From assembly GCF_022045235.1 (NCBI RefSeq), contig NW_027266266.1:33852001-33916000 (forward strand): a DNA stretch of 64,000 nucleotides, read 5' to 3'. This DNA comes from Haliotis cracherodii (taxonomy: Eukaryota). Made by a program: the position numbers and the translations under genes. The notes below the pieces were generated by a model. It was not told the origin of the DNA. It worked only from the letters and a program-made list of their open reading frames with translations, and did not search any database. Of this stretch, positions 1-49,146 are shown in pieces (position 1 is the first letter of the stretch; each line of letters starts with the position of its first letter).

Positions 1-1030
1 TTCGCTGGCCACTACCTAAGAGATGTCACCTTTGGAAGGCATCCATAACTTTGGCCTTGTGGTGGTTACCCAAAAGGTCACTGTCCCTAGACGCCACTGA
101 CGCTTCCACATGTCGGGAGCCGACCTGTCAACCTCTCCGGTGTGTGACACCCTAGACAAGAAGGTGACATGCTACATGCACTGGCTCGGTATGTCAGTTC
201 TAGACTTTAACTCTGTTTAATTTCTTTTACTGCAATGATACCTGGACGTCACATACCTGACTCTCTCCTTCCCTGCCAACAGGAATGGTCACTCGATGCC
301 GGACATCACTGTTGCTGATTAGTGGAGACGAAGGAGAGTTTTGGAAAAACACATCTGATGGTATGCCCTCCTCCGTACTGTCAGATACAGATGCATTAAG
401 GAGTAATGCAGGATGAATTAAAAAATCTTGTAAAATCTAGATATTTTCTATATTTGTACACTTATCCCACATTACTCAAAGAGGCCCACCTGTTGCAGAG
501 CTGCCCTGCCATGATGTCTTCAGATGATCTGTTTTTACCAGTAATATGCTGATCAGTGATGTCACCTCTTCCGTGGTCACATGGTAGATGTGTGATAGGG
601 TTAGCCACTCAACCAGTTGGAACAACTTCTTCTTCAGCAAGACCTCTCACTGCCCTTTCTATGCCAAAAACAAGCAGTGAATGTATTAAGGAGTAATGCA
701 GGATAAGTAAAAAAATCAGGATATTTACCATCCACAAACACACAAGTGTGATAAACTCTTTATCAAATAATGTCATTCTTCAATTCTGTGCCCGAAAAAT
801 CTCTTCCCATCTCTCACAAACATTACGTAAACATTGCAAGTTTTCCTGGTATGTGCGCATTAATATATATTACGTCAGAAGGTAACAGACTTAGCCCTAC
901 AACTAGTTGGAACAACTTGTCTTCAGCAAGACCTCTCACAGCGCTTTCTCTGTCAAAAACAAGCAGTAAATGCTTTAAGGAGTAATGCAGGATAAGTATA
1001 CAAATATAAAAAATATTTAGATTTTAGTAG
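1..1030 (+). mobile_element. DIRS1-like retrotransposon copy 1, 3' end (YR tail, ICR ~388-475, ITR ~476-715, second partial ITR plus right extension ~890-1030)
   Basis: Colinear with ~18900-19590; the ICR halves are complementary to the two element termini. Confidence 0.8.
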
Positions 1031-1054
1031 AACTGTTGTGATATATATGTAAAG

Positions 1055-2010
1055 AGAGGGATATAAACTGATGTGATCTACAGATGGGACATATTCAGAA
1101 AAGGTTCTTCTGTTGTGGTATAGATGTAAACAGATTGGGTGTAACAGATGGGGTATATAGAGATGTGATATCAACATATGGGGAAAAAGAGATGGGATAT
1201 GAACAGATGGGGTATATATAGAGATGTGTTATATAGAGATGTGTTATAAACATCTGGGGTATAAGGAGATGGGATTTAAACTAGGGGTGTCACGATAAAT
1301 CGAAATATCGATATTGGTAAGAACTTGAAGTAATTAAATCGATTGTTAATTCAGTTTACGATCAATAGTATCGATTTCAGTAAAGAATATTGATAGCTTC
1401 GATTGCATTTACCATATCAATAAGATACATGCAATGCTGTTCAAATTTGTTTTTCTTTTCATCATGAGTGGCAGTAATTTCCACATAGTAATGTGGAAGT
1501 TTCTTTTTCTTAAATAATTTACTAACAGGGTAAAGAAAAAACAAATCAGTCATATCTAAAACTTTACTTTTAATTTGTTGTTATGGTTATCACATTCAAA
1601 GGAAACTTCAGTTCCAAGGTTTAAATCAACTCTAAATCCATCTGAAAACTATCGATATTTATCGCAATAGTTGGTTGCAATATCAATAGTTATCTCAATA
1701 GTTTCTTTCAATAGCAATAGTTATCGCAATAATGATTTCCAGACCAATAGTCACCCCGAATTTAAACAGATGGGATATAAACAGATGGGATATAAACAGA
1801 TGAGATTTAAACAGATGGGATATAAACTGATGGGATTTAAACAGATGGGATATAAAGAGATGGGATATAAACAGTTAGGATATAAACAGATGGACTTTAC
1901 ACAGATCGGACTTAAACAGATGGGATTTAATCAGATGGGTTCTGAACTGATGGGATAAAAACTGATGGGAATAAACATTGGATATAAACAGATAGGGTAT
2001 AAACTGTTGT
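1055..2010. repeat. 15-bp minisatellite (AAACAGATGGGATAT)n interrupted by a hAT MITE
   Basis: Visible tandem units on both sides of 1282-1759; the repeat generates the KQMGY pseudo-ORF. Confidence 0.9.
1282..1759. mobile_element. Non-autonomous hAT-like MITE
   Basis: TIRs TAGGGGTG...CACCCCGA, subterminal ATCG motifs, 8-bp TSD ATTTAAAC (1274-1281, 1760-1767). Confidence 0.85.
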
Positions 2011-2564
2011 GATGCTTAGACAGTATGCAAAGTAGTGTGATATAAATGAACCTCATCCATGAATTATTATATCCTATCTGTTTATATGATGACAGCATAT
2101 ATCCCATCTGCTTCATGGCAATTTATATCGAAGCTATATACCATCAAGATGAGGGTTTACAACCTAGTATCTGAATATACAGATGGTTAATCCCCCATGT
2201 TCTACCTGGCCATCCTCTGGAACTTTCATATTTAATGAAACTCTACTTTTGTCACTGGATTGGAATAGTAGGAATCCTATATCAGGAAGTGGTTTTCTGT
2301 TAGCCATCTCTCTCATGTTCCCCTGTCCATCATTTTACAGTTTTTGTATCTCTATGAGACTTAAAGGAAGATGAAGTTGGAACTGTACTTGGCCCCACAC
2401 AAGTCAGGTCTGATATTCAACAAATCAGCAGTGGTGGTAATATTGCAAGAAGTCACTTTTGTACTTTCAAAAATGTTGAGATATGTGGCAATTTGGCATG
2501 CAAAAACTTGTGACCTTTGTCGGCAGTACTGCAAACAGATGGGACCATAGAGTCTTACATCTCT

Positions 2565-2850: not shown

Positions 2851-2937
2851 TTCTATCTGTTTTCAGTGTCATAACCACAACTGGTCCTAATATGATTGAT
2901 CATGACTAGTTACGTTTTGTTTGCTTTTTCATTCCAG

Positions 2938-3542
2938 GCGTTTAATGTTAGCGAAAATCAACTGGGTTTTTGTCTTCAAGGACACACTGTACAGAGAAAA
3001 TGTACCCAAGTTGATAGACTGCATCCACAACATTCTTCTCCATCATGAGAGAGAGGCTGCAACCACCCAGGACTTAGTGACTACACATGGGATGAAGATC
3101 AACATCAACTTTACCCATGGCTTGGACTTTGCCACGGAGTATCTGGGGGAGGAGGATGTGACAACTAACCCTTCCAATCAACAAGCATCACTGGCCAGAT
3201 CTGGTCTCAGTTATGATTTCTGGGACAGGCATTTTGAAGGAAGAACAGAGGTACCATGGAAAGACTTTAAAGATGCATTTGTGCTTGACTATGGTGACAA
3301 GATAGTTGAGCAGTATTCTGAAGATAAGAAGAAACTGTTTGTTAATCTGATGTATAAGGATATCTTCGATCTGAAGAAAACAGTCAGCAAGTTTGTGTAT
3401 AACCAGGCATGCAGCAACAACATGAATGCTGACCCACACTGTTTCTACAACAGGATTGAGGAGTACGCTATTGCCTATCTCTCACTGAGGGAAGTGATTG
3501 GCATGGACAGCACACTCCGCATCACTACCATACAGAGTTTGG
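2938..3542 (+). CDS. Host gene, internal coding exon A (Cbl-type EF-hand-like segment, then start of the first HEAT-like repeat); gene starts upstream of the window
   Basis: Polypyrimidine tract plus ttccag acceptor ending 2937; open frame RLMLAKINWVF...TTIQSLG; donor G|gtgagc at 3543 (phase 1) is compatible with the next exon. Confidence 0.88.
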
Positions 3543-4425
3543 GTGAGCAATAGCAATCAGGACGTTTAATTCCTTTATGAAACCTGTAGTCTCAGTGTGT
3601 GATATCTATCTCTATCATATTATGGGTACCTCTCGGCAGGATAAAGCCTGCAGATAAACACTATATCCGATGGGGTCATATGCTGATAGAGATGTAAATA
3701 TCAAGGTCAAGTACCCAGCAGGCATAAGAACATTGAAACAGCGTTGAAACAACGTTACTCTTCAACGTTGAAACAACATTGCAAATTGGTTTCATATGAA
3801 AATTGAACTGACGATGACAATTCAAAGTTGGGTTTCAACATCATTTTTCAATGTTGCTTCAACATTTTTTTAATGTTGCTTCAACATTATTTCAACGTTA
3901 TCTCAACATAATTTCTACGTTGCTTCATTGTGTATGTTTCAATGTGTATGTTTCAAGTTGTATGTTTCAACGTGCATGTATCAGGGGACCAGTTGTAAAC
4001 CTAGAAACCGTCTTTCAGTACAGCATCAGCTCATGAAGTGGTGGCTTCCCTGTGGCAGGACACTTTCAGAAATTGCCTGTGTTCAAGATTTGAGAAATAT
4101 TCTAGATGATCATTATACACACCAAACAACTAACCATTTTCTTTCAGTTAAACAATAATTAAGCTAAGCTATAGGTTAATTAGGGTGGTAACCAATTTGC
4201 CTAACATATATTACCATACACAAGTGGAGAAGGCAGTCTTGTCCTTCTTCCCCTTCATATTGATCTTCAACATAAGTGACTTTGTCATCATCCTGAAAAA
4301 TAACCAGTAAAATATCTGAGGATGCAAATTCAAAGTATAGATCGATGTTTTTGATGTATATATAATCATTGACCAACTTTTTTATTATTTGCATGTGGAT
4401 TAACACCACTTCCTTATTATTATAA

Positions 4426-4595
4426 GGGGCAGTGTGGTAACCTAGTGATTTGAGCTTTCACTTGTCACACCGAAGACCCGGGTTGATTCCCCACATGGGT
4501 ATAATGTGTGAAGCCCATTTCCAGTGTCCCCCACCATGATATTGCTAGAGTATTGCTGAAAGTGGCATTAAACCATACTCTCTCACTCACCCACT
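4426..4595 (+). mobile_element. Short tRNA-derived SINE
   Basis: tRNA-like head with A and B boxes (GGGTTGATTCCCC), (TCAC)n tail. Confidence 0.75.
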
Positions 4596-4636
4596 CCTCA
4601 TTATAAACTTTCCAATTATCTTGCAATGAGGCAGTA

Positions 4637-5450
4637 AATAGAGGATATTTCATATGTCAAGTGAAATATGAAATGAATAACCAACAGCAAAAGATTAACT
4701 CCATAAATGACCATCTGTCATTATTTGCCTTGTCAATGTGAAAGTAACGTAAAACAGTTTGTGTATGGGCTTGACACTACGATAAAGGGAGACAATTTCA
4801 GAGGAGGTAACCCTTGTATGACAATAGTTCAATCAAAAGTGTAATAACGAAATATAAATAACGTTGAAAATAAAAGTGCTTTCAGAAACTAGTGCTTGCT
4901 ATAAAATGTGCTGCCGAAGGCTATATTTAGTGGCATAGCCACGAGTGAAAATATCTCCTTTTCCCCTCGTCACGAGATGAGAGAAACATGATATTTCATG
5001 AGACATATGGAATATCTTTCTGTCTACCAGAAAATTAAATTATTTCATTACAAATGTAAAACCTTGAAACGTAAATTCTCTTTACCTGACACACAGGGAT
5101 GGCTCACCAACCCTCATACATTTGCAACTTAAAAGTGGTTCTGTGTTTGCAAAATCTTAAACAATATAAACAAAAGTATTAAAAGATATTTAGGGTCACA
5201 AAAATTCTTTATCATACATTTAGATACGATTATGTACAAAATCAACTTTAACAAAAAATTATTCCTGAAAACTAGGAGACTGCTGTCAGAAGTGAAAGAA
5301 TACGCGCTGGTCAAGGAACAACAATGGAGCTTTGTGAAACAAACCATCTCGATTGACGAGTTAAAGGAGATATTTACAGTTTGTAATGAAACATTTTCGA
5401 GAGAATAACAAACGGCAAGAACACTCCATAAATGACCATCTGTCATTATT
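4637..5450. mobile_element. Non-coding hairpin-ended repeat Y, copy 1
   Basis: Inverted arms ATAGAGGATATTTCATATGTC (4637) and GACATATGGAATATCTTTCT (~5003-5020); internal blocks shared with 43656-44220. Confidence 0.75.
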
Positions 5451-6286
5451 ATCTCCCCGGCATATAATGCAGGGTGATATAGCGATCAGCCAGTCTGTCC
5501 GTCCGTCCGTCCGTCCGTCCGTAATCATTTCCTTTTTTTGGGCAGAACTCGAAAATAATTCAGTGTATTTGATCGAAACTTGGCATATCTATCAGTCACA
5601 TACTGAAGTTGTGCCTTTTGCTATGTAGGAATTTTAGAAATTTTTATTTTTTACGTTTCCATGGTAACAAGTTGTACTTAGGTTCTATAAGGGTGGTGTT
5701 CGTTTCCGGAGCGTAACTCAAAAACCGTTAAATACTTTCTTACAAAACTTTGCATGTCTACCAGGCACATACTGAACTGGTGCCTTTTGCTATTTAGGAA
5801 AAAAAAAATTATTTATTTTTTTACGTTTCCATGGCAACCAGTTGGACTTAGGTTCTATAGGATAGAGTTGGTTTCCGGAGCATAACTCAAAACCCATTCA
5901 AAACTTTCTTACAAAAGTTTGCATGTCTATGAGGCACATACTGAACTGAGGCCTTTTGCTATTTAGGAATTTTAGAATTTTTTATTTTTTACGTTTACAT
6001 GGCAACAAGATGGATTTAAGTTTTCATATATGGTGGGTTCACTTATGGAGTATAACAAATAAACTGTTAAATATTTCCTTGCCAAACATTGCATGTCCAT
6101 ATATAAATTACATACAGAACAGGTGCCATTTGATATTAAGGAGTTTTAGAAATGTTTATTTTATAATTTCCATTACAGCTATTTTGACATGGGCTAAGAG
6201 AAATGTTGGGTCAGTTACCTGGTTTGGGACCATAATGTGTTAAATGGGTTGGGGATATAGATGACTTCGTCGACTATACGCTTGTT
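5447..6286. mobile_element. Helentron-associated non-autonomous element (HINE/DINE-like)
   Basis: Subterminal inverted repeat ATCTCCCC/GGGGATAT, (GTCC)n microsatellite, ~180-bp internal tandem units, ends CTTGTT in a T-rich site. Confidence 0.7.
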
Positions 6287-6814
6287 TCTTGTTATTTGTC
6301 ATTTGTTTGCATAAAAACACCCACAGAAACAAACGTTTTACTTTCCATTTCATATGGATGTGACCATGGTGGATCTTTTGTTGGTAAACAATGTATGCTT
6401 CTTAAAGAACATTCATCTGTTGACTCATTACATACAGAATTGCACATTTACTTGTGTTAGATTCACTGCAATGAAAATATCACTTTTCTCAACTTCAGAA
6501 AACTCTTTCACACTGAAGTATACATAAAAAGTAAATACCTTCACACATTGTCAGGACTACCGACTCAACCACTTCTAGTACCAGACTTCTATTGCTCCAT
6601 AGGCTTGAGTTCTACGTACTGAGCTACTGTAACCCTTCACTAATTCACTTTATTTTACCTCAGCATTGCCTTTTTTACATGGTAATTGGCATTCGCCCAG
6701 CCAACCCTTCGGTACTTTTTCTGTACAAAGAACATTTGAACTTCATATGTGGTATGAAAATCAAAACAGTCATGCATATATGCAAAGTCATGATAAGTAT
6801 ATTAATTCAACCAC

Positions 6815-6983
6815 ACCCATGAAGATCCGGGTTAGAATAGGTCCTCAGCAACCCATAATTGTCGTAAGAGGCAACTAACCGGATTGGGTGGTCAGGATCA
6901 CTGACTTGGTTGATGCATGTCATCATATAAATTGCGTAGGTCGATGCTCATGATGTCAATCACTGGATTGTCTGGTCCAGACT
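6815..6983 (+). mobile_element. SINE fragment with Nin-domain-like core
   Basis: TTGTCGTAAGAGGC.ACTAA core; same family as 23516-23768 and 44540-44800. Confidence 0.75.
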
Positions 6984-7367
6984 AGGGCTAAGGACAGAGT
7001 TCGAGTAATCTAATAGCAACTAAATGGGTACCTGACCCTAATGATCGTAAAGCTAGAGTTGATAGATCGTAAAGGGGATCCAAGGGCTAAGGGCAGAGTT
7101 CAAGTAATCTTATAGCAACTAAACACCAACCTGATAAACTGCATTCATATGTAATAAAGTCTTAATAATGAAAGTTAATTTGAAAAAATAGTATACATGT
7201 ATGTATTTCTCATTTATAATCATTTTAGCCACTTGAATTTCGCCGGTGTGACTGGCAACAAAATACTACAAATTACATCATAGGGTATTGTGACATGTTT
7301 GAAAAGTTTGTGATACTGTATGCCTGTTGTTCAGGGAAAGGTGGTATATTTCCTGTAAACAAAAATA

Positions 7368-8886
7368 TACTGAACTGCAAAAGAAACATCACCATGGATA
7401 GTTATAGGAGAAACCTTGTTTGTTCAAACAATGTAAACATACTGTGAGACATAATAAAAAGATGAAACTTGGCAAAACTGATCATCAAGGTTGAAATTAA
7501 AGTGTCAAATATTCTCAAAGTGAAACACAACACTAATCTCTGAGAAAATGGCATCACAAGTCAGTATCTCGTGTGTCCGCCATGTGCATTGATGACTGCC
7601 ATGCAACGTCGATACATGGAATGGATGAGGCGGTTGATGAAGGCCATAGGCACTTGAGCCCACACTCTGGGGAACGCCTGACGCAGTTCAGCTGCAGTTG
7701 TGGGCCTTAATCGGACGTCATTCAGCCGTCTTTGAATCTCGTCCCACAGATCCTAAAGGTGTTCAATGGGATTTAAATCGGGACTGAGTGCAGGCCACTG
7801 CATGGTTCTGATGCCATTCTGCTGGAGGAAGTCTCTTGTAGCTCTCACAGTGTGTGCATGGGTGTTATCATGCTGAAACCCGTGGTTGCGGCGACGTGCC
7901 AAATGAGGTATGGTCATGTGGTCTCAAGACTTGATCAATGTACCGAGCTGCTGTGACACTATTGCCTCTTCCTGGACCAATGTTCTGGAACATCACAGGG
8001 CCGACCCTCCATCCCACACCATGATGCTCGGACCACCCCATGAGTCTCTCTCAACAACACAAGCATCAGAATAATGTTCCCCACAGTGTTGCCATACTCT
8101 TTCTCTGCCATCTGCTGATGAGATACAGTAACGGCTCTCGTCTGAGAAGAGGACTCTTCCCCACTGCTGGTGGCGCCAATATTAGTGCTGTGTTGCCCGG
8201 CGATGACGTGGTGTCATAATGGGTCCTCGGTGTGGCCTGTGACAGTGGAGGTGTCTGCTCGTCAATCGTCGACACACGGTGTCCGCAATAATGTGTCGCT
8301 GGTGTGTCCCCATGGTCTGTCGAGCAGTTTCCGCAGCAGTAACAACGCGATCTTGAAGATGCTGTCGCACAATCTGACGATCCTGACGTCGGATGGTGTC
8401 CCTTGGTCTTCCACTACGTGGTCGGTCATCTGTAGTGTTGGTGGTCTGGTACCGTTGCTGGAGCATGTAAATGGTTCTTACAAGGACTTGAAATGCATTG
8501 GCTACTTCCCGGTCGGTTTGTCCAGCTTGAAATCGTGCAAGGATTTGCTGTCTCTGATTTCTTGTTAATCTTGGCATGTGGTAGCAATTCAATAACGAAA
8601 GAATGTTATCCGATCTGGTTGGATTCTAACTGGGCAAGAGATGGGGGAACTCATGTGCATTTCAATTTACACGGAACTCCCGTGCATTGGGTTACCATGG
8701 CCATTGCCGTGATGCATTTTGGCGATCGGTTTTATTGTTATCTGCTTTGTTTTTTATCATCAAATTTCATTTTTTCAGACAAGGTAATGCTAAATTTTAG
8801 AAACTTTGACAAAAATTACCCAGATACTTAAATGACAACTTTTCATGCAATGTTACTTGGGGTGACGTTTCTTTTGTGGTTCAGTC
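7368..8886 (-). mobile_element. Tc1-like transposon with disrupted transposase (~7560-8577)
   Basis: TIRs TACTGAACTGCAAAAGAAAC / GTTTCTTTTGTGGTTCAGTC flanked by TA; RPRSGRPR, QHDNT and WPALSPDLNPIEH motifs. Confidence 0.92.
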
Positions 8887-9679
8887 TATATTTCTTTTTC
8901 AGATCATGATGTCAGTGGTGGAAATACATAATCTTTTAAATTTGCAAAATGTAAATGTCTTAAACCCACAAAGTACAAGTATTAAATACCATACATGACA
9001 TTCTAGGTTGAAATATGTATGCATAATAGGGGTATTTTGCAAACACATGTTCAAATATGAGCTTTATCCTATAAATGCTTATGTAATGTTGCTTGACAAT
9101 GTATCTTTGAGCAAATCCATACTGCCAACTAAATCTTGTCTGTAAATATTCAATATATTTTCACAATTTGAGTAAAGATACAAAACTGCTTCAAAAAAAT
9201 ATGTGTTTCTTAGTCCTACCTGAACTACAATGAGGTATTGCATGCTTAGCTGATGCTCCAGCGTAGAGACCCAAGTCTTCACCTTGATCTATTTAGAATA
9301 AACAAAAAGGATTCCACTAAGGTTACATTGTAATCCCTAAATAAACCAAATATGTGAATCAAGATCTGCATAATATGGCACCAACATTACAAATTTAGTG
9401 AGTTATTGATTGCAATATTTGTACTATAAGCAGATGAAAGATGAAAAGTTCTGTTTGTGTACAGAAGCAACATTGTTATTAAAACTGCAACTGTTAAGTA
9501 ATTTCCAATGATATTAAAGAAGTATGAAATACATATTATTTCTACTATGTCAACTTGAGAAAGTGAAGATCAATAAAAAAACCAACTCTAATAAAATGCT
9601 AAAATATATACACTAACATATTGAGTGTAAAGATGCAAATAAAAATATTAGTCCCTTCATTGTGATCTGTATATGCATT

Positions 9680-10205
9680 CCTGATACAAAATCCAACATC
9701 ACTTTTTTCTTGGCCAATCTTTTTTCAGGTGTTTGACACAACTGCTCATCATCTGAAGAGTTCTCCACTGTAGTTGTGAAATCAAAGTCCTAGCATTCCC
9801 TCTTTGAGTCTATGTAAAACGCACACATCCAATACTTGAAAAACAATAGTAACAATAACATATAACGGCTGCAAGGTATGATCTGAGATACACTCATTCA
9901 TGACCATGCAAGATTTAGTTTGTGATTACTATATACATGTTGATTTACTTCAGCCAGTGCATAGTGATATGTATCATACCCTACCCTTCCTGTATCGCTG
10001 CATCCCTGATGGTTTACCAATAATTAAATGGATATATGCTTACCAGATCTACATTTTACCTTCACTAGGTTAAATGTAAGCCATTTCCTTGTCGGACATC
10101 GCATCTCCTTCATGTATCCACACAGACGGTATGGCCTCCTCCATCTCCTCGTCTGCGTCCATCCATACCACTCTTGCCCATGTCTTCATCTTCATGATTT
10201 ATCTA
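9680..10205 (-). pseudogene. Remnant exons of the second (accessory) gene of the CMC element
   Basis: Minus strand: ag acceptor, MKMKTWARVVWMDADEEMEEAIPSVWI then (shifted frame) KWLTFNLVKVKCRS, g|gtaagc donor; a further acidic exon-like segment at ~9790-9680. Confidence 0.45.
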
Positions 10206-10699
10206 GTACCTACAAACAAATATTTACCTTAGTCCTATGTTGTTACACACAGTGTACATGTTCTACTATAAGAGAATAGTATGGGTCAAGTATATGTATC
10301 TAGGATCATAAAGCTATACCTCATCCACAAAATATTTAGTTTCTCTGAGATATCTTGACATCTCTAAAATATGTGGTACAGCTACTATAAGGATTCAATG
10401 TGCAAATACTTGAGTATTTAAACAATAAGAATAAATATATAGTAACAAATCGTCAAATCTAAACTGTCAAAATCTTGTAAGAGCTCAATGTGACTTATAA
10501 ATGTATTCAGTTTTGCTTCATCGTCTGTTTACTGCAACATATTTACTCATGATACTATGAAACCTTTCATTTTGTCTTTGCAATTACTTGCATGATACAA
10601 ACATACATAGACATAATTGTGCCGCTGCAATTAATGTGATTAATTAAGTTTTTAACTGTTAGTATATAAAACAAAGAAATACCGTTTATGATGTCTCAA

Positions 10700-12550
10700 C
10701 TCCATGCTAAAGTGGTAAGGGAAGATGACTTCTATTGTCTAATGGCAGACAACACCACTTTTCTCTCAATGTCCTCTCTTGTGACAAGTCTTTCGTGGCC
10801 ATATCTTCCAATGTGCAGGTAATTCAAGACACCAATATTCAGAAGTTTGGAATCACAGGGTCTCCAAAAATAGCTTTCTATTCTGTGGTTGCTCAATATT
10901 TTGCAAACAGAGAAACCATTTTCTCTCTTCTCCTTGACTGGTCATTTAAAAACAAACAACCATCCTTCTTCTTGGTAGTTATGTATTATGACAAGGATCT
11001 CTTGTGGGGTTGGCTTTTGGACTTTTCAAATTTAGTGAGTTTTTGACTTTGAACGACTGTGTTTTTTAGCTTTCTTCACCATCTTATTAAGCTTTTGCAA
11101 ATAATTTTCAAACTGGAATGCACTGAGTTCATTGAGTGATACTCCATAATGCTCAACATCATCTGGCATGTGAATCAATGCATGACCATTGTAAGATTAC
11201 ACAATATATCTCTTTTCCCGACTGAACAAAATTTGACCATCAAATCACTTGCATACTGCAAGTAGGCTTTCCTTGTGTTAGCTTTCAAATCCAAAAGAAC
11301 TGACATTGTGACAGTTAATCTAAGGAAAATATGATACATTCTGTTGGTCAGCATGTTGCGTAAAACAACTGGACCAATATAGTGTAAGAATTGCCGCAAC
11401 TCTGTTGTCTTCTATCTGTCCAGCATTTCAAGAGGTCATGGTTATCTTGCAGATTGTCTTGGCATCTTTCCACTTAGTGACATTAGGTTATCTGAGATGA
11501 TATTTATTTGCTGATGGGACAACTTGCACTCTCTCGGGCCTTGTTTCAAGTCTTCTTCACAACACCAAGAAACACAAGATGCATGTAGTCAAAAGAGAAG
11601 GAACTGATGCATGGTATGCCTATGTCAATTCAAAGGAGACCTTCCAACTTGATGATCGTTGTACAACATATGATGTAATCCTTCATCAGTCCTCAGCTTA
11701 AGGATATTTTCTTGAACATCAAAGACTACACGGCGTTCCCATGTTCTTCTTACAACACACCACTCACAACTATAGTATGCATTATGTCCCTTGATACTTT
11801 TCGAAAAGACCCAACCTTCAGCATCACATATGAAAGAACTTACTTTCACTGAAAAATGACATCTATCCACATCAATGCCATTGGCACATATCTCTTGAAG
11901 TTCAACTAAAAAGGCAGACAAATATTCAACCACAGGATTTGGTTTTGCTTTTCCACAAGCTGCAACAATAAATGGATCGAAGTTGTTCACACCGCATAAA
12001 TTGGCCACCACTGCATATTTGATGACTTGAACAGAGGAATTCCATCAATGTTGAAGTTGAGTAAGACCAATATATTGGTTCCTTCAAAGAACTGTGGATG
12101 TTGCACTATGACCTTAGAATACCTGAATCCATCCCTAAATAGAGGTAGTCACCTCTACATTTTTCTGTGATTACAATATTCCTAGGTGTTTCAAAAGAGT
12201 GTGTGTGTCTTTAGGGAGACGGAGACCTTGCTTCCTGTGGATATCCAGACGTTCATTTAGTGATGAACGTGTGCATTTATTGTAATCAGCCCAACCAGCG
12301 AGCAGTCCCACCAAGTTATTTTCTACTTCATCCCTCAATTCATTGTGAGACTCAACAGATGTGCCAGTATCACTTCCAGGCACAAATGTTGCATGTTTTC
12401 TTCCTCAGAACTTGCACTGTCAGTATTCTCTGAGTCATTCAGAATGGGATCAGCAACCTCCTGATGTTTGTCTTCTTCCTCACTGCTACTACTAGGTAAG
12501 GCAAGGGCATCCACCTCTACATGGTACATTCTTCAACGCCTCAGAAATGT
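10700..12550 (-). pseudogene. CMC (EnSpm/Mirage-like) transposase pseudogene
   Basis: Motifs LPKDTHTLL, FNIDGIPLFKSS, FICDA...IKGHNAYYSCEWC, DYMHLVFLGVVKK, RQFLHYIGPVVL across frameshifts and stops. Confidence 0.8.
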
Positions 12551-14379
12551 CATCTGTTGAAAATTATTCAACAATTTGACATGCTAAAAACTGGAAGTGT
12601 ATCCATCAATCAATGTTAACTGCATGCAACACAAATCTTAAGTAATATATTAACACTGAAATGAACAGCAATATTATGAAAATTGCAACAGTTGTGAACA
12701 TTTCAAGTCATTTCAGTGGTAAAATTGCTTAAGTTGATAATGGCAGAGCATAGTTCATATGACATACCATATGCTATATGGGCCTATAGTGGACAATCCT
12801 AGTGGAAATTTTGAAAAAGAATAGACAAATCAGTGACAGGCAATCAACCAAATCACCACGCCTGACCACACAATTACGCAAGACCTATACATTGGCACTC
12901 CACTCATTCATGATGTCTAATGGAATAGTTTCTGTCTTCTTGTAGGGATGCTGACTTGTTAATTTGCTGCTAATTATAGCTTGGCTAATGCAGTAATGGT
13001 TTGAGGATATTCTAACATGCCTGAGTAGACTTGTCTATAGACATTGACGAATCAAATAATTGAAAAGTAAGTGATAAAGTTCAAAATAAGCAGAAGAAAA
13101 TAATGGCCCCAATATCGGTGCACCTGCATTATACCGGACACCTATCCGCCATGTTTGTTTGATGCCACTAATAAAGCTTCATGCGACAGCATCAATATTT
13201 GAAAAAATAATACAATAAAGCTCAAAATAAGCAGAAAGAATTACCATGTTGGATTTGTATGATTTAATATGATTAAACCTTGAAATTGAATATTAAATTA
13301 AATTTAAAAAGTACTCAATATTAGAAGTTCCATCATGGCATGCGCCAACCTTATCAGTGACATCCGTCGAAGACACATTTCAGCCAACACATTGTATTTT
13401 TTATCTACTTTGGTAATGAAACATTCCTTTATTTACAAAAGCATTTAATTCGAGCTTTTGTGTGTGGGGCAAGCCCCACCTCCCTCCCCAAACCCACTGT
13501 TTTTTAGCTATGCAGCAAAATATGGCATCTGGAAAACATGGAAACCGTTACTAAGGAATGAGCTCATGCACATCCATTACCAAAACATTTTAGAAGGTGT
13601 GCGGTATATTGCACTCAAAGCAAATCATAAACATCGTAAATTGACATAATGCAACATATTGATCGAAGATTTACTCGAAAATGCTGCACACAGAAATTCC
13701 ATAATGGCTTGTGGAAACCTTGAACATCCTGGCCACAACCACTGTGTTCATTGGGTCCACGTTTCAACAACTATATTGTATTTTTCATTAACTTTACTAA
13801 ACATATTTGGGGATATATGAATTTTAACTACACGTTAATAAAAGTCAGTTCATAATGTTGCGAATACCGACTGAGCTGAGCTGTACTTCATAAAGCCCTA
13901 TAGGCCTAGCCTATCACCGGACAGATTGGTTGTTGTTGTTTTTTATCTGTTCATCCAATTTTTGTGCGAAAATGCAATTTTATAGATTTATGTGTTATAA
14001 CTAAATAACCATCAAACTACAATTCATTTTCAAGAAAAGAATGGAAACAAAACGTGCCCAAATGTTACTTGAAACTACCTTCTCGATCATATGTCGGGCA
14101 AGTTTTTCATTTTCTGCGCAGTCGCAAATCTACTTCCTGTCTACGCTGATGCTAAATATGCAATTATCATCAACTGCAAGTATCGAGTTCAAATCCAAGT
14201 GGCAAGTTCTTTATTTTTTAGTGTTGAGTTTAACGTTATGCTTTTTTCAATTAAACATTTGCATGATATACAGGGACACCCGTTACTATTACTGATCTTG
14301 ATGCACTGTAGACACAAGGAATATTTTATGCGTCCTTCGGGATGCAGTATATTTTTTTCTATGTCCATTCTCTAAATTT

Positions 14380-14383
14380 GTGC

Positions 14384-14414
<31 letters not shown>

Positions 14415-14871
14415 CACACGGTGTACATGTAATATATAATAAAATGATAAAGTCCACGTTAGTCCATCATCTTCTCTTTATATGTTTCAGACAGTACTTT
14501 CGCTGTCTCATGACAGCTCTTCAGTGTAACTGACAATGACATATAATATATATAATAAAATGTGACTTCATAATGTATTTACACATTCCAGCGACGACAC
14601 CAAGTAATTTAACAATTGTAGGGAGACATTTGAATTAAAATATACAGTATTTGTAAAGAAACAGTGTAACATTTACGATTGAAATGAGATTCTATTACTA
14701 CATTCTAGAGTTCAATTTGGGTTTCATCAATTGGATAAACATTTGTTCTTTTTCCAGTCTCAGCTGCTTGTTACTTGTATACAATTAATAAAACGGAAAA
14801 ATGGTAAATTTCCCCGTTTCCGCAATCATCAATGTGTTTGCTGACACAAATACCCGTCGATATTATTTTAT

Positions 14872-14931
<60 letters not shown>

Positions 14932-15122
14932 AAAATGAGGTAAATGTTCACTCGGTGTACATGTAATATATAATAAAATAATAAACTCCACGTTAGTCCA
15001 TCATCTTCTTTATATCAGTTTCAGACATAGTACTTTCACTGTCTCATGACAGCTCTTCAAAGACAGCGAAAGTACTATGTCTGAAACTGATATAAAGAAA
15101 ATGATTGACTAACGTGGATTTT
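14380..15122. mobile_element. Penelope-like pseudo-LTR remnants (two direct copies and one inverted partial copy) next to (TA)n tracts
   Basis: 14418-14525 matches 14952-15059; 15061-15120 is an inverted copy; (TA)n at 14390-14413 and 14875-14929; hammerhead core present. Confidence 0.6.
14486..14532 (-). ncRNA. Minimal type-I hammerhead ribozyme motif (degenerate; second copy 15020-15060)
   Basis: Minus strand reads ACA-CUGAAGA-GCUGUC(AUGA)GACAGC-GAAA-GUAC-U; sibling copies supply the UA cleavage site followed by UGUCUG. Confidence 0.65.
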
Positions 15123-15987
15123 CCAAAAGTCAAAGGTCGAATTGAACTGATGTACATAGGTATTTTGGTTGATCAATGTCACAACCTAAAAGTAACCAAT
15201 ATTAAACATTGTTGTGTTCCAGCTGGGTAGGGACTACTTTCAGTGATTACAAACCAACATGGCATCGCCCTTGTCATTTAGAAATCAAGTCAGAATTAAC
15301 CACAGGAGAAACTACTGGGCTAACTGCTATGATTATCCAAAGAATAGTCTCATATACTGAAAATCAGTGTCCAACTGTGACGTAGCTAAGGCATTTTACA
15401 AGTTTTAGAAACTTTGAAGATATAAACAATTTAGCGAAGATACTTGTCTAGCGGGATCAGTTACCATATCTGTGCTTGTAGACCCCTGTGGCTTGGAACC
15501 TTTTCCCAAAATGAAAACAGTTAGAATTGACCAAAATATGTCTGAATTGTTATCTTGTTTACTTTTGTCGCTGTGTGTACATCTGACTGCACTTTGTGAC
15601 ATTATGACAGGACAGGCAGATTCTAAACAAACGTGATGTCTCAAAGACTAGGGTTAGAGTAGCTTCCCTTTGAAAAAGTGCAGACCAGTGGATTGCTGTG
15701 AAAGGCAAGTAGAAACAATTTGTGTAGGCAGTTGTTGTTTTGGCTATTTGTAGTTACGCCACTGTATAAGAAACAGATTTCAGTTGGAACTATGTTGACT
15801 GTTGTCACTGTCCGACTGACACATCACTTACCTTCTGACGTAATATATATTGATGCGCACATTCCAGGAAAACTTGCAGTGTTTAGGTAATGTTTGTGAG
15901 AGATGGGAAGAGAACAGAATTGAAGAATGACATTATTTCATAAAGAGGTTATCACATTTGTGTGTTTGGGGATGGTAAATATCCTGA

Positions 15988-18900
15988 TTTTTTCACGTAT
16001 CCTGCATTACTCCTTAATGCATTCACTGCTTGTTCTTGACATAGAAAGAGCTGTATGAGGTCTTGCTGAAGAAAAGGTTGTTCCAATTGTTAGAGTGGCT
16101 AACCCTATCACACAGCTCCCAACTGACCACGGAAGAGGTGACATCACTGATCAGCACATTACTGGTAAAAACAGATCATCTGAAGACATCATTGGGGGAC
16201 AGCTCTGCAATGGATAGGTTACTTTAGAATTAAGCTAAAATATCTAGTAAAATCATCTTATCCTGCATAACTCCTTAATGCATCTTTATCAGACGGCATA
16301 CCTCCTTTGACTCCAACCAATTAGCAACAATGATGGCCAGCACTGATCAGCACATTATAGCTGTCACCTAGAGAACAGTCACATGTTTGAGAACTCTGCT
16401 TAATCTATTTGAATCCTTTGCTGATTTTATCAACCCTATTATTACATTGTGATTGTTATTCTGCTTACAGTTTGTCTCTTCATATATTTCATATGATTTC
16501 TGCCATAGCATTATTATTAAATGCCTGGTGGTGGTGTTTGCCGTTCCAATTAGCCATTTTGAATTCATTGCGTGGTCACGTTTGTTCATGTCATGCATTC
16601 TGTATTCTTTATATTGCTTGGTTTCCTTAATTCATTGTCTTACCCTTACATATTACCGTTATTAAAGAGGTGGTTATTTGCAGTTTCTAGCTCCTCCAGC
16701 CGCGCGAGACAGAGACAGCACCTCCTATGGATCTTGGTGGTACCTCTACAGTCCGTTCTTTCTCGTCACACGGCTCTGCCTCTCCTGGTTCAACATCCAG
16801 ACACAGTGGAAGCAAGACATCCCATTCAAGATGCTGCTCTCTTGTCTGGTGCTCTAGAAACTACCATTCCGACTCATCTGTATGTAGACTCCCACCTCGG
16901 CTTCAAGCAGGTCCCTGACTGGCTAGCGAATTGCCTGGCGACTGTCACTCCTTCACAGGGTCCAGAGATGGATAAACATCCAACATCCGTCCATCCTGAT
17001 CTGATGATCAAAGACAGGATATCAGCTTATGACAAAAACTTAGCCAAGCTTTCACTTACCGCCTCCTTCAAAGCACCCAAGTACAGGAACCATCTGTGTC
17101 ATGGATACTAGACTGGCATACATCGAGACGAAAATTGATTGCTCCATCAAGTCTCTTTCTATAATGGCATCCACCTCTTCAATGGCCAAGTCTCTGCCAC
17201 CCACTCCAGTGTCTCCACGGCTAGAGACAAGACTGCCTTCAAGGCCTTTCGTGGCAGTAGCCGTGGCAAGGGGAAGTCTACTGGAACCTACCAGCCGCGC
17301 TGTGACCATTCCCATAGAGGGAATGGTGACACAAGAATAAGTGATGATACGACGGATGCCAACGACTCGAATGTCCCATCCCTAGTTCCAATTGTCGAGA
17401 CACCTGTAGCTTGGAGAATAAGACTCTACTAGCAGAATTGGACCCATAAGTTATCAACATCCTGCGCCACCAGTTTCAACTCACACTGAGAGATGACCCG
17501 CCACTGACATCGTCACCATAGCAGATACCTGCCCCCCAACACAACAGCAGCTCCTTCTTTCCAACATCCGCATGCTGCTGGCCAATATTCCTCGTCCCCC
17601 ATGAAGGATTCGGACTCAGGGATGTGGTCTTCATCAGTGGCACATCAACAACCTAGAAATAGAGGCTCTCATCCTGGCTCTCTCTCACTGAAAACAGGCG
17701 CTTCAGCACTCAGATCACCATATCCACAGACAACATCACCGTCATCGGTGCCTCTGCAATTAGAGGACAACCCACTCCTCCTCCCTGTTCTGACGTTCTG
17801 GTTCTTCCAACTAGTTGATCAACTGGAGCTCCATTTGTCAACACCTCGGCTACGCCAACATCGACCTATTTGCCACCAGCCAGAACTTTCAGGTCGAGAC
17901 CTTCATATCTCCAGTGCTGGATCCACAAGCCTGGGCAGTCGATGCCTTCATTGTCCCCTGGGAAGAACTAATAGTGTACGCTTTTCCACCACCAGTGATC
18001 CTTCCCAGGGTAGTTCTAAAGATTAGGTTGACAAAGAGCCTCGCTGTGACTTTAATAGCGCCTGCGAGAGGCTGGTTTGTGGATCTCAATGAGACGTCAG
18101 CCATCTTCATGCCTGGTCCATCTACAAAGAGCCCTAAGCACCAAGGGTTACTCGTCAGGGACGGCAAAAGCAATCACCTTGGCCGACAGACCTTACACCA
18201 GGGGCCTTTATGATGACATGTGGTGTTCCTTCGAGAGTTTCTATAATTCTTGACAGAATTTCTACTATTTCTGTGCCTTTGTCTGTGGGTCAGCACCATC
18301 AAGACCTACCTTGTGGCCCTTAACTCTGTCTTGGCAGTTCCGGAAGATAGAAAGAAAACCAAGATTCCGGCACTCCCAGCAACAGTCTTCCTCTTGGCTC
18401 TGGCAACAGCAGCATGATTGAGTGAACTGCATGCTCTGGATATCACCCATGTTAGTTTTGAGTGTGGAGCGCATAGGAAGCCATTCATCTTGGGCTGTGA
18501 AGGGACTTCATAGCCAAGAATCAACTCCAAGGACAGACAGATAGATCCTTCACCATCCTGTGCCTATCTTCAATACTTGGGGTTAAAGATGAACAGGAAC
18601 TTCTACTGTGTCCAGTACTACTATTTGTGCACTGCGATGCTTCATTCGACACTCAAAGATTGGTTGAGGACAACAATGCCACCTTTTCATCCCAGTATCT
18701 ACGACATTGTAGGTGGAAGTCAGCCGCAAAACGATCACAATATGGCTTCACGCCATCATTCTTCAGGTCTATGGGGACTGGGACTGGACCCTCATTGAGC
18801 CAACAACCCGCATGAGATCTGGGTGGTCACCTGTACCATAATGCTTCACAGCAAATGTTCCATCCATGCCATTATGGAAGGCTGCTTCCAGTGGACACAG

Positions 18901-19596
18901 TCTTCACCCGCCACTTCTCGCAAGATGTTGCCTTAGAAGACGTCTAAGGTGGCCACAGCTTTGGCACTTTTGTGGTTGCCGAACAGGTCAGTGCCCCAGC
19001 ATGTCTGGAACCAACCTTTCGACCTCTCCCAGACACCCCAGACTAGAAGGTTACATGCTGCACGCATTGGTTCTAGACTTTAGCTTTGCTTAATTTTTAT
19101 TACTGCAATTATATTTGGACATCACGCATACCTCACTCTCTCGTCTCCTACCGACAGGAAAGGTTACTCAGTGCCAGACATCGCTGTTGCTGATTGGTTA
19201 GAGTCTATAGAATGTTTATTGAAGATCACATCTGAAGGTATGCTGTCTGATAAAGATGCATTAAGGAGTTATGCAGGATAAGTTAAAATATCTAGTGAAA
19301 TCTGGATATTTTTTATATTTGTATACTTATCCTGCATTACTTTGTCTAAAGTGGCCCACCTGTTGCAGAGTTGCCCTCCCATGATGTCATCAGATGATCT
19401 GTTTTTACCAGTAATGTGCGGATCAGTGATGTCACCTCTTCCGTGGTCACATGGGAGCTGTGTTAGCCACTCAACAAGGTGGAACAACTTCTTCTTCAGC
19501 AAGACCTCACACAGCGCTTTCTCTGTCAAGAACAAGCAGTGAATGCATTAAGGAGTACTGCAGGTTAAGTATACAAATATAAAAAACATCTGTATT
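15988..19596 (+). mobile_element. DIRS1-like tyrosine-recombinase retrotransposon copy 2, internally deleted
   Basis: Left ITR ~15988-16230 is inverted relative to the right ITR ~19340-19570; ICR 19256-19340; gag-like 16700-17340; DLFAT...AWAVDAF...W...YAFPP methyltransferase-like domain 17815-18070; YR motif TVFLLALATAA*LSELHAL at ~18383-18440. Confidence 0.88.
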
Positions 19597-19674
19597 GCCA
19601 AGGCTTGTTAAATACAATGTTTATTCCTAATACAGCATATTTACCATCCCTAAACACACCCACATGATAACATC

Positions 19675-20243
19675 TATATACCGATGATGTGTTGTAATCT
19701 CAGTGTTTGGTATTAATCTATGCCGATGATATGATGTAGTCTCCATGTTTGATATTAATTTATGCCGATGATATGTTATTGTTTCCATGTTTGATATTAA
19801 TCTTTGCTGATGATATGTTATTCTCTCCGTGTTTGATATTAATCTATGCCGATGATGAGTTGTAGTCTTCGTGTTTGATATTAATCTATGCCGATGATGT
19901 GTTGTAGTCTCAGTGGTTGATATTGATCTATGCCGATGATGTGTTGTAGTCTCAGTGGTTGATATTGATCTATGCAGATGATGTGTTCTAGTCTCTGTGG
20001 TTGATATTAGTCTATGCCGATGATGTGTTCTAGTCTCAGTGGTTGATATTAATCTATGCTGATGATATGTTGTTGTCTCAGGGGTTGATATTAATCTATG
20101 CCGAAGATGTGTTGTAGACTCAGTGGTTGATATTAATCTATGCTGATGATGTGTTGTTGTCTCAGTGGTTGATATTAATCTATGCCGATGATGTGTTGTA
20201 GTCTTCGTGTTTGATATTAATCTATGCCGATGATGTGTTGTAG
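19675..20243. repeat. 42-bp minisatellite, ~13.5 copies, whose last copy supplies the splice acceptor of exon B
   Basis: Unit TATTAATCTATGCCGATGATGTGTTGTAGTCTCAGTGGTTGA. Confidence 0.93.
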
Positions 20244-20345
20244 GCAAGTTTTCCTTTCCTGCGATTGTGAATGGTTTGTCTGATCTCCTTCATGATGATG
20301 ATCCAAACATCCGGGCAGTGGCTGCCATAGCTCTTGCCAAAGCAG
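20244..20345 (+). CDS. Host gene exon B, HEAT/PBS-lyase-like repeat (GKFSFPAIVNGLSDLLHDDDPNIRAVAAIALAKAG)
   Basis: tgtag acceptor, gtgagt donor at 20346, phase 1-1; L.D.D..IR..AA.AL HEAT motif. Not in the ORF track; translated by hand. Confidence 0.88.
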
Positions 20346-22708: not shown

Positions 22709-22777
22709 TATGTATATATCGAAAGTTGAGTGTCGTGGTCTTAAGTTTGCCTCATATTGCTTTTGTTGATGTGTCAG

Positions 22778-22913
22778 GCAAACAGAGGCGAGAAACAGTT
22801 GATAAGCTGATCAGCATTATGGAGGACGAGGATCGACTGGTGAGGGAAAGTGCATGCCTGTCTCTTGGATACCTCAAGTCCCAGAGAGCTGTCTCCTACA
22901 TTGTAGACAGATG
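22778..22913 (+). CDS. Host gene exon C, HEAT-like repeat (KQRRETVDKLISIMEDEDRLVRESACLSLGYLKSQRAVSYIVDRW)
   Basis: gtcag acceptor, gtaggt donor at 22914, phase 1-2; D.D..VR..A..SLG motif. Confidence 0.88.
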
Positions 22914-32102: not shown

Positions 32103-32169
32103 TGGGTGGTTAGGCTCGCTGACTTGGTTGATGCATGTCATTGCGTGAATCGATGCTCAGGATGTCAAT

Positions 32170-42565: not shown

Positions 42566-42619
42566 CCTGCATGGCATTTGTACAACAATGTAGTGATACC
42601 CACGTTCTCCAAATTGGGT

Positions 42620-48294: not shown

Positions 48295-49146
48295 AATAGA
48301 GGAAATCACGCGAGTGTGTTTGGGGATGGTAAATATCCTGCATTAGGAATAAACATTGTATTTAGCGAGCCTTGGTGCGCATTAATATTTATTACGTCAC
48401 AGGGTTAGTGATGATTGTGTCAGTCGGACAGTGACAGTAGCCAATAGAGTTCCAAGTGAAATCTGTTTCTTATACAGTGGCGAAGCAACATATACGCAAA
48501 ACAACAATTGTTTTTACTTGCCTTTCGCGGCAATTCATCGGTCTGTCCGCTAGAGTAACTGCCCTTTGTCAAAGGGAAGCTACTCTTACCCTAGTCTATG
48601 AGACGTCACGGCCTCGTTCAGACGTTGTTGACAGTCGGCCTGTTCTGTCATAACGTTAAGAAACGAAACAAGGTAACAATTCATACATATTTCGCCTAAA
48701 TCCAACTATTTTTATTTGTGGAAAAGGTTTCAAGCCGCAGAGATCTACAAGCACAGATATGGCTACTGATCCCGCTTGACTAGGCCTAGTGCCCTCGCAA
48801 AATTGTTTCAAAATTTATATCTCCAAATTTGCCAAACTTTTAAAATGTTTTTTTAAAACTTAGTTACGTCACAGATAGACACTGATTTTCAGTATCTAAG
48901 ACTGTTTTTTTGGATAATTATAGCAATTATCCCTGTAGTTTATCCAGACTTAAGATGGTTAATTATGACTCGATCGCCGAATTACAAGTGCGACGCCATG
49001 TTTGTTTATAAACACTGAAAGTAGTCACTGCTTGACCTTTGATATTTGCATCTCTATCTGCATATGATCACAACAGATATCGTTTTTATCCGTTGGCTTT
49101 ATCCTGCCGAGTAACCTACCCATTATATGATAAACAGATTTATCAA
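48295..49146. mobile_element. Repeat X, uninterrupted copy
   Basis: Starts ATAGAGGAAATCACGCGAGTGTGTTTGGGGATGGTAAATATCCTG; reverse complement of the three intronic pieces. Confidence 0.8.

What the first reader, a model, noticed from the sequence alone, without database searches (positions are those of the whole stretch)
3543..20243. A 16.7-kb intron explained almost entirely by nested insertions into one ~1-kb repeat
Seen: 3600-3713, 15228-15860 and 19597-19680 join into the reverse complement of repeat X at 48295-49146. The first gap is bounded by CCCAGC...GCTGGG with TA duplicated (EnSpm/CMC, 11.5 kb); the second holds the DIRS1 element. Inside the EnSpm are SINEs, repeat Y, a HINE, a Tc1 and Penelope-like ends. 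Inference: the ancestral intron was only about 100 bp, and the nesting gives a relative chronology of at least seven TE families.
Basis: partly seen in the sequence, partly recalled or inferred. Interest (0 to 1): 0.7.

Follow-up and report, generated by a model that had tools for sequence, protein, structure and literature searches.

The report
Transposons nested in an abalone intron
A 16.7-kb intron in an abalone gene is a stack of ten kinds of jumping gene inserted one inside another, starting from a 1-kb element that itself landed in a short repeat at the intron's end; this is an ordinary, unusually readable example of how introns grow.

Summary
Observation confirmed. Intron 3543-20243 of an abalone TIR+HEAT gene is 96% transposon DNA. 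Removing an 11,514-bp EnSpm/CMC-type element (TA duplication) and a 3.6-kb DIRS1-like relic rejoins a colinear 939-bp copy of repeat X, a ~1-kb high-copy family. The EnSpm holds seven further families; family copies show the empty site for three inserts.

Two inferences need correcting. (1) X split a unit of the 42-bp minisatellite that forms the splice acceptor (22+20 bp, in register), so the pre-X intron was 131-635 bp, not ~100; deletions also shaped the stack. (2) Nesting orders copies, not families: 17 of 45 pairs are ordered, X still has 99.7%-identical copies, and 10 of 10 sampled non-autonomous EnSpm copies carry one SINE as cargo. Divergences do not contradict the nesting.

Extras: the X/DIRS junction occurs inverted in a second DIRS 15 kb upstream (its 22-mer is found twice in the genome); X is unclassified (no target duplication, 155-bp terminal hairpin). 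Relatives at ~3% divergence share the EnSpm and DIRS, so ancestral length stays untested. Nested-TE clusters and their use for dating are published; the scan noted splice-site arrays elsewhere in this genome. Ordinary biology, low interest.

The parts
2938..3542 (+). Coding exon of the host gene (439-aa TIR_2 + HEAT protein), upstream of the intron
   Evidence: contig of a guessed-RNA run covers 2938-3543
3543..3584 (+). Splice donor and the only non-repeat part of the intron (42 bp)
3585..3611 (+). Left remnant of the 42-bp acceptor minisatellite: 5-bp end of one unit plus 22 bp of the unit that X split
   Evidence: 23 of 27 identical to the majority unit, in register; score reached by 0 of 2000 shuffles and 0 of 6304 real windows
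3612..3713 (+). Repeat X, first piece (5' terminus; TA at 3712-13 is the EnSpm target)
3714..15227 (-). EnSpm/CMC-type DNA transposon, 11,514 bp (about 6.7 kb own backbone, 4.8 kb nested inserts); strand by transposase
   Evidence: both ends and interior colinear with family copies; TA duplicated at 15228-29
4426..4599 (+). SINE1 with ~7-bp target duplication (4419-25 / 4600-06)
   Evidence: empty site in EnSpm family copies; 4681 candidates, best hits 84-87%; TSD; SINE label from tRNA-like head and repeat tail read by eye
4635..6526 (.). Repeat Y (hairpin-ended, no target duplication), rearranged on its left side, split by the HINE
   Evidence: empty site in EnSpm copies; Y on both sides of the HINE; 4843-4931 matches family Z
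5446..6456 (+). HINE (non-autonomous Helentron-type), 3' subTIR and stem-loop lost
6815..6983 (+). SINE2, tail lost
   Evidence: (loose ends)
6984..7321 (.).
7368..8886 (-). Tc1-type element with TA duplication; transposase broken
   Evidence: HTH_Tnp_Tc3_2 hit; empty site in C4 copy; ends as in 9 of 9 family loci
10689..12681 (-). Decayed transposase of the EnSpm element
   Evidence: tblastn with the C4 relative's 490-aa ORF, E 6e-135
14390..15122 (-). Penelope 3' ends in tandem plus a short inverted piece, in the EnSpm's own (TA)n run
   Evidence: family ORF of 785 aa has RVT_1 and GIY-YIG; its C-terminus maps to 14701-14845
15230..15986 (+). Repeat X, second piece, to the middle of its terminal hairpin
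15987..19596 (+). DIRS1-like relic, 3.6 kb: starts with ATT, inverted terminal repeats, internal complementary region at 19256-19341, methyltransferase remnant at 17824-18132; right end eroded
19597..19677 (+). Repeat X, last piece (outer hairpin arm and 3' terminus)
19678..20243 (+). 42-bp minisatellite, 20 bp of the split unit plus 13 units; the last unit ends in the real acceptor AG, 8 of 12 upstream units also end in AG
   Evidence: only one weak (65%) other locus in the genome
20244..20345 (+). 102-nt coding exon (one HEAT repeat); absent from a relative's annotated isoform X2
493..885 (-). Inverted copy of the X/DIRS left junction (15828-16210) inside the right end of a second DIRS relic in the preceding intron
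   Evidence: 89.6%; X part 8 of 159 differences; junction 22-mer found exactly twice in G000
48295..49146 (-).

Best explanation
The intron is one ~1-kb element (X) split by an EnSpm-type transposon and a DIRS-type retrotransposon, with seven more elements inside the EnSpm, and it likely grew from 130-640 bp by neutral, sequential insertion offset by deletions. Shown: X lies inside a unit of the 42-bp acceptor array; the EnSpm lies in X with a 2-bp TA duplication; the DIRS lies in X's hairpin starting at ATT with no duplication; SINE1, Y and Tc1 occupy sites that are empty in other EnSpm copies; the HINE lies in Y. Inferred: each element used its usual route (cut-and-paste for EnSpm and Tc1, recombination at a 3-bp ATT for DIRS, target-primed reverse transcription for SINEs and Penelope, rolling circle for the HINE); X first, EnSpm and DIRS next in unknown order, then the inner copies; after the DIRS insertion a repair event likely copied its left junction into the neighbouring DIRS 15 kb upstream. 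All copies here are dead; donor and acceptor stayed intact, so the gene still splices.
For: Colinear rejoining to 28 of 28 two-ended X copies, exact at the EnSpm joint. EnSpm ends with 2-bp duplications in 9 of 11 and 3-bp in 2 of 11 family copies; backbone colinear with C4, C9, C56 and nine more copies. Empty sites for SINE1, Y+HINE and Tc1. DIRS start at ATT, as in mollusc DIRS1-like elements (PMC3266345 passages). In-register 22+20 split of the array unit. Non-CpG differences from the family majority: X 74/858 = 8.6%; Y 5.2%, Tc1 4.6%, long Penelope piece 4.5%, HINE 4.0% (each lower than X, Fisher p 0.012-0.0001); SINE1 8.6%, Z 6.9%, SINE2 6.1% (not different from X). EnSpm interior is present in runs of organisms B and C, DIRS interior in B and C with short pieces in D, at near single-copy depth and ~3.2% difference (187/5843 sites for B). 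No sibling copy with the same inner inserts among the 40 scored hits.
Against: EnSpm (14.7% non-CpG from sampled non-autonomous copies; p 0.11 to C4 in the transposase) and DIRS (nearest p 0.12-0.18) look more diverged than their host X; I read this as lack of close relatives in the sample, which is not shown. SINE1 is as diverged as X, so it could be cargo that came in with the EnSpm. SINE2, Z and Penelope have no clean empty site because deletions removed their flanks. The left part of Y is scrambled and holds a Z-like piece, unexplained. Genome searches score only 40 candidates each. The orthologous intron of a distant species was not read.
Confidence: 0.88

Rival explanations
1. Cargo model: part of the stack was built elsewhere; the EnSpm (or X with the DIRS) arrived with some inner elements already inside, so nesting does not date insertion at this locus.
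For: 10 of 10 non-autonomous EnSpm copies share one SINE at the same place; the C4 copy carries gag-like and DIRS-like pieces. SINE1 is as diverged as X (13/151 vs 74/858 non-CpG).
Against: Y, Tc1, HINE and Penelope are significantly less diverged than X. The X/DIRS junction 22-mer occurs only twice in G000, both in this gene. No sibling EnSpm with these inserts among 40 scored hits per search.
Confidence: 0.2
2. One reading: the ancestral intron was about 100 bp, the array grew after X, and the nest dates seven or more families.
For: Only 42 bp are non-repeat; the lower bound of 131 bp is near 100; tandem arrays can grow fast (PMC3087553 passages: 6 vs 3 units in two haplotypes).
Against: Array units already differ by 8.2% from their majority; a whole unit must have lain downstream of X; only 17 of 45 pairs are ordered; X has young copies up to 99.7% alike, so family order cannot be read from one copy; deleted non-repeat DNA leaves no trace.
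Confidence: 0.25
3. The acceptor array or the inserted DNA is functional: decoy AGs tune skipping of the 102-nt HEAT exon.
For: 8 of 12 upstream units end in AG and each would bring an in-frame stop; a relative's annotated isoform X2 (P0002) lacks exactly this exon.
Against: One predicted isoform in one species; no such isoform among the listed members for other species or for P0001's own source; amphioxus splice-site arrays are reported not to disturb splicing (PMC3087553 passages). No junction reads were available.
Confidence: 0.1
4. Assembly artefact or chance matches.
For: One assembly; the region is repeat-rich and no relative's contig spans it.
Against: Contigs of independent organisms cover EnSpm and DIRS interiors; one contig of organism C bridges the EnSpm/SINE2 joint; a same-species contig spans 2900-3808 without differences (may be the source sample). 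Base-exact TA duplication and exact X closure are not artefact-like.
Confidence: 0.02

Closest known systems
Nested TE clusters used for relative dating (Transposon Cluster Finder; PMC2517846, passages read; PMC2836564, abstract read)
   Same: Older elements interrupted by younger ones, rejoined by defragmentation; young TEs tend to land in old TEs.
   Different: Those studies order families from very many clusters genome-wide in mammals; one cluster gives only a partial order of copies. Here the host is a mollusc intron and the depth is four (X > EnSpm > Y > HINE).
EnSpm/CMC (CACTA-Mirage-Chapaev) DNA transposons of animals
   Same: CCC...GGG ends, 2-3-bp target duplication, subterminal 11-bp repeats, transposase with 2886 homologues at E <= 0.001, many in molluscs and fish.
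   Different: Pfam support is weak (DUF4218 8 of 24, DUF1258 3 of 24, Transposase_21 1 of 24). The defining end and TSD features are recalled, not read: my search gave no suitable paper.
DIRS1-like retrotransposons of molluscs (AcaDIRS, LgDIRS; PMC3266345, passages read)
   Same: Inverted terminal repeats, internal complementary region, ATT start, no target duplication, methyltransferase domain whose homologues carry reverse transcriptase.
   Different: Internally deleted (3.6 kb against 5.3 kb for L150); RT not found, recombinase not detected, right end eroded.
HINE / DINE-1 non-autonomous Helentrons (PMC4067079, passages read)
   Same: The 5446-6456 family has all features. X shares T-rich 5' flank, no duplication, a 13-bp subterminal inverted repeat and a 3' stem-loop.
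   Different: X's stem-loop is ~155 bp and its 3' inverted repeat lies ~170 bp from the end, against 5-10-bp palindromes and 38-60 bp in the paper; no microsatellite or central repeats; no autonomous partner found.
Amphioxus 'mirage' repeats (PMC3087553, passages read)
   Same: Tandem array at a splice site with many spare AG signals.
   Different: Mirages span the exon-intron boundary; this unit is purely intronic and ends at the acceptor AG.

Membership tests
EnSpm/CMC (3714-15227) | Short terminal inverted repeats shared by family copies | tested here: met
   CCCAGC...GCTGGG in the window and in 11 of 12 family loci with a left end (C9's right end not in the fetched DNA)
EnSpm/CMC (3714-15227) | 2-3-bp target-site duplication (feature recalled) | tested here: met
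   TA/TA here; 2 bp in 9 of 11 and 3 bp in 2 of 11 copies
EnSpm/CMC (3714-15227) | CMC-type DDE transposase | tested here: inconclusive
   Remnant at 10689-12681; weak Pfam hits only; no tree with reference CMC transposases was built
DIRS1-like (15987-19596) | Inverted terminal repeats and internal complementary regions | tested here: met
   ICR 19256-19341 complementary to both ends
DIRS1-like (15987-19596) | NTT (mostly ATT) termini, no target duplication | tested here: inconclusive
   Left end starts ATT as in family copies; right end and 30 bp of X are deleted
DIRS1-like (15987-19596) | RT-RNase H-methyltransferase pol | tested here: inconclusive
   29 homologues among 191 candidates, most with PF00078, 4 with PF05869; only the methyltransferase part maps to the window
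DIRS1-like (15987-19596) | Tyrosine recombinase ORF | tested here: inconclusive
   No Pfam recombinase hit among 84 short ORF pieces from this copy, five relatives and the EnSpm region; copies are too decayed
HINE (5446-6456) | 5' subTIR with inverted repeat, microsatellite, central tandem repeats | tested here: met
   (GTCC)n and 169-bp units; family ends
HINE (5446-6456) | 3' subTIR, stem-loop and T-rich target | tested here: met
   Present in 6 of 7 family copies printed; deleted in the window copy
Tc1/mariner (7368-8886) | TIRs, TA duplication, Tc1-type transposase | tested here: met
   catalytic part broken and not tested
Penelope-like (14390-15122) | RT + GIY-YIG ORF in the family; tandem and inverted ends | tested here: met
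HINE/Helentron (repeat X) | No target duplication, T-rich target, subterminal inverted repeat | tested here: met
   Abutting direct repeat 0-1 bp in 24 of 28 copies; T at the base before the element in 25 of 28; 13-bp inverted repeat at 836 of 1007
HINE/Helentron (repeat X) | Short 3' palindrome close to the end; microsatellite or central repeats; Helentron partner with the same ends | tested here: not met
   Hairpin ~155 bp, z -12.8; no tandem repeat in X; partner not searched
Crypton (repeat X) | Tyrosine recombinase partner; no TIR, 4-6-bp or no terminal direct repeats (PMC3212892 passages) | tested here: inconclusive
   No duplication fits; long hairpin not described in the passages read; no partner found; Repbase/Dfam not available
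Mirage repeats (19678-20243) | Unit spans the exon-intron boundary | tested here: not met
   Unit ends at the acceptor AG and holds no exon sequence

The most novel reading that the evidence does not exclude
Repeats X and Y are members of an unnamed, still active class of high-copy animal transposons that insert without target duplication and end in a subterminal inverted repeat plus a long (up to ~155-bp) terminal hairpin, moved by an unidentified partner enzyme; the hairpin also draws secondary events (DIRS insertion at its centre, rearrangement of Y, templated copying of the junction).
Probability: 0.15. Interest if true: 0.5.

Novelty: new member of a known kind. Interest (0 to 1): 0.2.

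Why it matters
As found, it is a clean teaching case: one intron grew 25- to 125-fold from transposon stacking while donor and acceptor stayed intact, and it shows why single nests must not be read as family chronologies (cargo, long-lived families, deletions). It could serve as a calibration locus for abalone transposon ages once distant orthologues are read. It would matter more only if X/Y proved to be an undescribed transposon class, or if the decoy acceptors were shown to control skipping of a HEAT exon in a TIR-domain protein.

Tried and rejected
Orthologous intron length: no relatives are held for G000. Public runs gave only close relatives; their contigs were laid on 2900-14385 and 14931-19720, not on 14386-14930 or the array, and none spans the intron. 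Contigs of B and C end 16 letters into X, too few to count as bridging. Joints that skip the DIRS (15986 to 19597-19624) have short sides and other letters between; I read them as other X copies, not empty alleles. No RNA holder listed on record; decoy-acceptor use could not be measured.

Two separate Penelope insertions: BLAST identities of 87% and 97% suggested two ages, but the gap is due to deletions; substitutions do not differ (18/398 vs 2/124, p 0.18). Rejected.

DIRS target preference for X: flanks printed for 21 DIRS loci (several overlapping) showed X only in the upstream copy of this same junction (read by eye). A first idea of a 10-bp homology at insertion was dropped for the published 3-bp ATT model.

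Rfam hits in the intron (4 at E <= 0.5, all plant or mammalian microRNA models below their gathering scores) sit on the Penelope inverted piece and TA runs: chance hairpins.

C4's extra 4.3 kb as lost EnSpm backbone: mostly C4's own gag-like and DIRS-like inserts.

Literature: searches found no paper on this locus or on X; Repbase and Dfam could not be searched, so 'unclassified' means unclassified by me. Supplements were not read; those of PMC10294476 may hold mollusc TE libraries that include X or Y.
Full report
Setting. The window is G000:C3:33852001-33916000. The exon at 2938-3542 is 100% identical to part of P0001, a 439-aa protein named from Haliotis with TIR_2 and HEAT domains. tblastn puts the next exons at 20244-20345, about 22777-22914 and 26365-26508, with no coding gap across the intron. 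The intron is 3543 (GT) to 20243 (AG), 16,701 bp, phase 1.

Repeat X. X is a family of about 1.0 kb with 3044-3286 first-look candidates (40 scored each); some copies are 98-99.7% alike. Cutting out 3714-15229 and 15987-19596 leaves 939 bp that align colinearly with all 28 copies whose two ends I could locate (28 of 33 loci; p 0.127-0.161); the native order scores 988 against 652-780 for three other orders. At the EnSpm joint the sequence closes with no base lost; at the DIRS joint 30 bp of X are missing. This is HINE-like in plan but not in proportions (PMC4067079 passages), and does not clearly fit Crypton (PMC3212892 abstract and passages). I leave X unclassified.

EnSpm. The element spans 3714-15227 with TA on both sides. 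Twelve other loci share its left end, 11 both ends, with 2-bp (9) or 3-bp (2) duplications. A 12.4-kb copy on C4 is colinear along its length and holds a 490-aa transposase ORF that maps to 10689-12115 of the window, its N-terminal part to 12681. The ORF has 2886 homologues among 7974 scored candidates; Pfam support is weak, so the CMC label rests on ends, duplication length (recalled features) and these weak hits. About 4.8 kb of the 11.5 kb are nested inserts; of the 6.7-kb backbone all but 715 bp match family copies.

Inner elements. Family copies lack SINE1 (4426-4599, 7-bp duplication), Y with its HINE (4635-6526) and the Tc1 (7368-8886, TA) at the matching sites. The HINE has Y on both sides, so the depth is four. 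SINE2 (6815-6983) and an overlooked family Z (6984-7321) abut each other, both truncated, where about 790 bp of backbone are missing. The Penelope ends (14390-15122) lie in a (TA)n run that the EnSpm family has at this place; their family ORF has RVT_1 and GIY-YIG. Deletions are general: DIRS 3.6 kb against 5.3 kb for L150, HINE and SINE2 ends lost, roughly 1.8 kb of EnSpm backbone by my estimate.

DIRS. 15987-19596 starts with ATT, has inverted terminal repeats and an internal region complementary to both ends, as described for mollusc DIRS1-like elements, which integrate at a 3-bp junction without duplication (PMC3266345 passages). A remnant at 17824-18132 matches RT-bearing proteins, four with PF05869. 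No recombinase was detected in 84 ORF pieces.

What X landed in. The 27 bp left of X (3585-3611) match the 42-bp unit of the array at 19678-20243 in register: 22 bp left plus 20 bp right of X make one unit. The score was reached by 0 of 2000 shuffles and 0 of 6304 real windows. The array is locus-specific and its last unit supplies the acceptor; 8 of the 12 upstream whole units also end in AG, each followed by an in-frame stop. Since whole units lie downstream, at least one existed when X arrived: the pre-X intron was 69+20+42 = 131 bp at least and 635 bp if the array was already full. Units differ from their majority by 8.2% (45 of 546, not all independent), near X's 10.6% at all sites, which leans to an old array. 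Lost non-repeat DNA cannot be counted.

Chronology. Ten copies give 45 pairs; nesting orders 17. The order is of copies: X is outermost here, yet its family has near-identical young copies. Inner position does not prove insertion on site: 10 of 10 non-autonomous EnSpm copies carry the same SINE. Divergence from family majority at non-CpG sites fits the nest where it can be tested: X 8.6%, Y 5.2%, Tc1 4.6%, Penelope 4.5% and 1.6%, HINE 4.0% (all lower than X), with SINE1, Z and SINE2 not distinguishable from X. Against my reading, EnSpm (14.7%) and DIRS (nearest p 0.12-0.18) look older than X; their sampled relatives are distant, so these are upper bounds, but I could not show it. Samples are the best 40 hits per search, SINE2's is incidental.

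Relatives. Contigs from organisms B and C cover the EnSpm interior, and B, C and (short pieces) D the DIRS interior, at about the exon's depth; B differs at 187 of 5843 sites. These insertions predate those splits. No distant relative was available, so ancestral length remains untested.

A copied junction. Window 493-885 is an inverted copy of 15828-16210 (169 bp of X-derived DNA plus the DIRS left end) inside the right end of another DIRS relic, followed by a repeat of that relic's own end. The junction 22-mer occurs exactly twice in G000, both here. The X part differs at 8 of 159 sites and keeps 10 bp since lost from the intron copy. I infer templated repair between the two DIRS ends after the DIRS insertion; the mechanism is inference from general knowledge.

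Comparison and verdict. Nested TE clusters, defragmentation and their use for relative ages are published (PMC2517846 passages; PMC2836564 abstract). Splice-site arrays are known as amphioxus mirages, which unlike this one span the boundary (PMC3087553 passages; lead from scan note e1-9161004). PMC10294476 passages list CMC, DIRS and SINE families as common in molluscs. The finding is real, well resolved and ordinary: a new example of a known kind, interest 0.2.

Noticed in passing
window 493-1031: Inverted copy of the X/DIRS left junction inside the right end of a second DIRS relic, with that relic's end repeated; junction found twice in the genome, both in this gene.
   Followed up: yes
window 4635-4937: Left side of Y is scrambled: a Y segment that is missing after the HINE (4675-4845) and a Z-like segment that is missing from the Z copy (4843-4931) lie here, next to Y's hairpin. 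Unexplained.
   Followed up: partly
window 20244-20345; P0002: A relative's annotated isoform X2 lacks exactly this 102-nt exon, which follows the array of spare acceptor AGs.
   Followed up: partly
repeats X (3612-19677, 48295-49146) and Y (4635-6526, 43652-44224): Both have one hairpin end, no clear target duplication and AT-rich flanks; possibly one unclassified kind. X still has near-identical copies.
   Followed up: partly
L058, L060-L068: A young non-autonomous EnSpm subfamily of 4.4-4.8 kb (96-99.5% alike) carries one SINE as fixed cargo.
   Followed up: yes
G000:C4:43029391-43041801 (L053, L054, L143): A 12.4-kb EnSpm copy with a 490-aa transposase ORF and its own nested gag-like and DIRS-like pieces.
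   Followed up: partly
L151:1884-4241: Open 785-aa Penelope ORF (RT + GIY-YIG); the family is young (up to 99.6% alike) and its copies sit in (TA)n runs.
   Followed up: partly
window 33572-41577: BEL/Pao-type LTR element with 96%-identical LTRs; its reading frame is broken into several pieces.
   Followed up: no
window 52242-52811, 58137-59108, 62204-63259: Three further Tc1-like transposase frames; two gave Tc1-type Pfam hits.
   Followed up: no
window 1123-2023, 26706-27929, 32166-33400, 42068-42568, 45417-47059, 50933-51407, 56252-56965: Several other tandem arrays; the 26706-27929 pair lies just after the host gene's last coding exon.
   Followed up: no
P0001: The host protein joins an N-terminal TIR_2 domain to C-terminal HEAT repeats and is conserved in gastropods and bivalves (14 hits); uncharacterised.
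   Followed up: partly
L116, L117 (G000:C78): The only other match to the acceptor array, 65-66% identical; probably unrelated.
   Followed up: no
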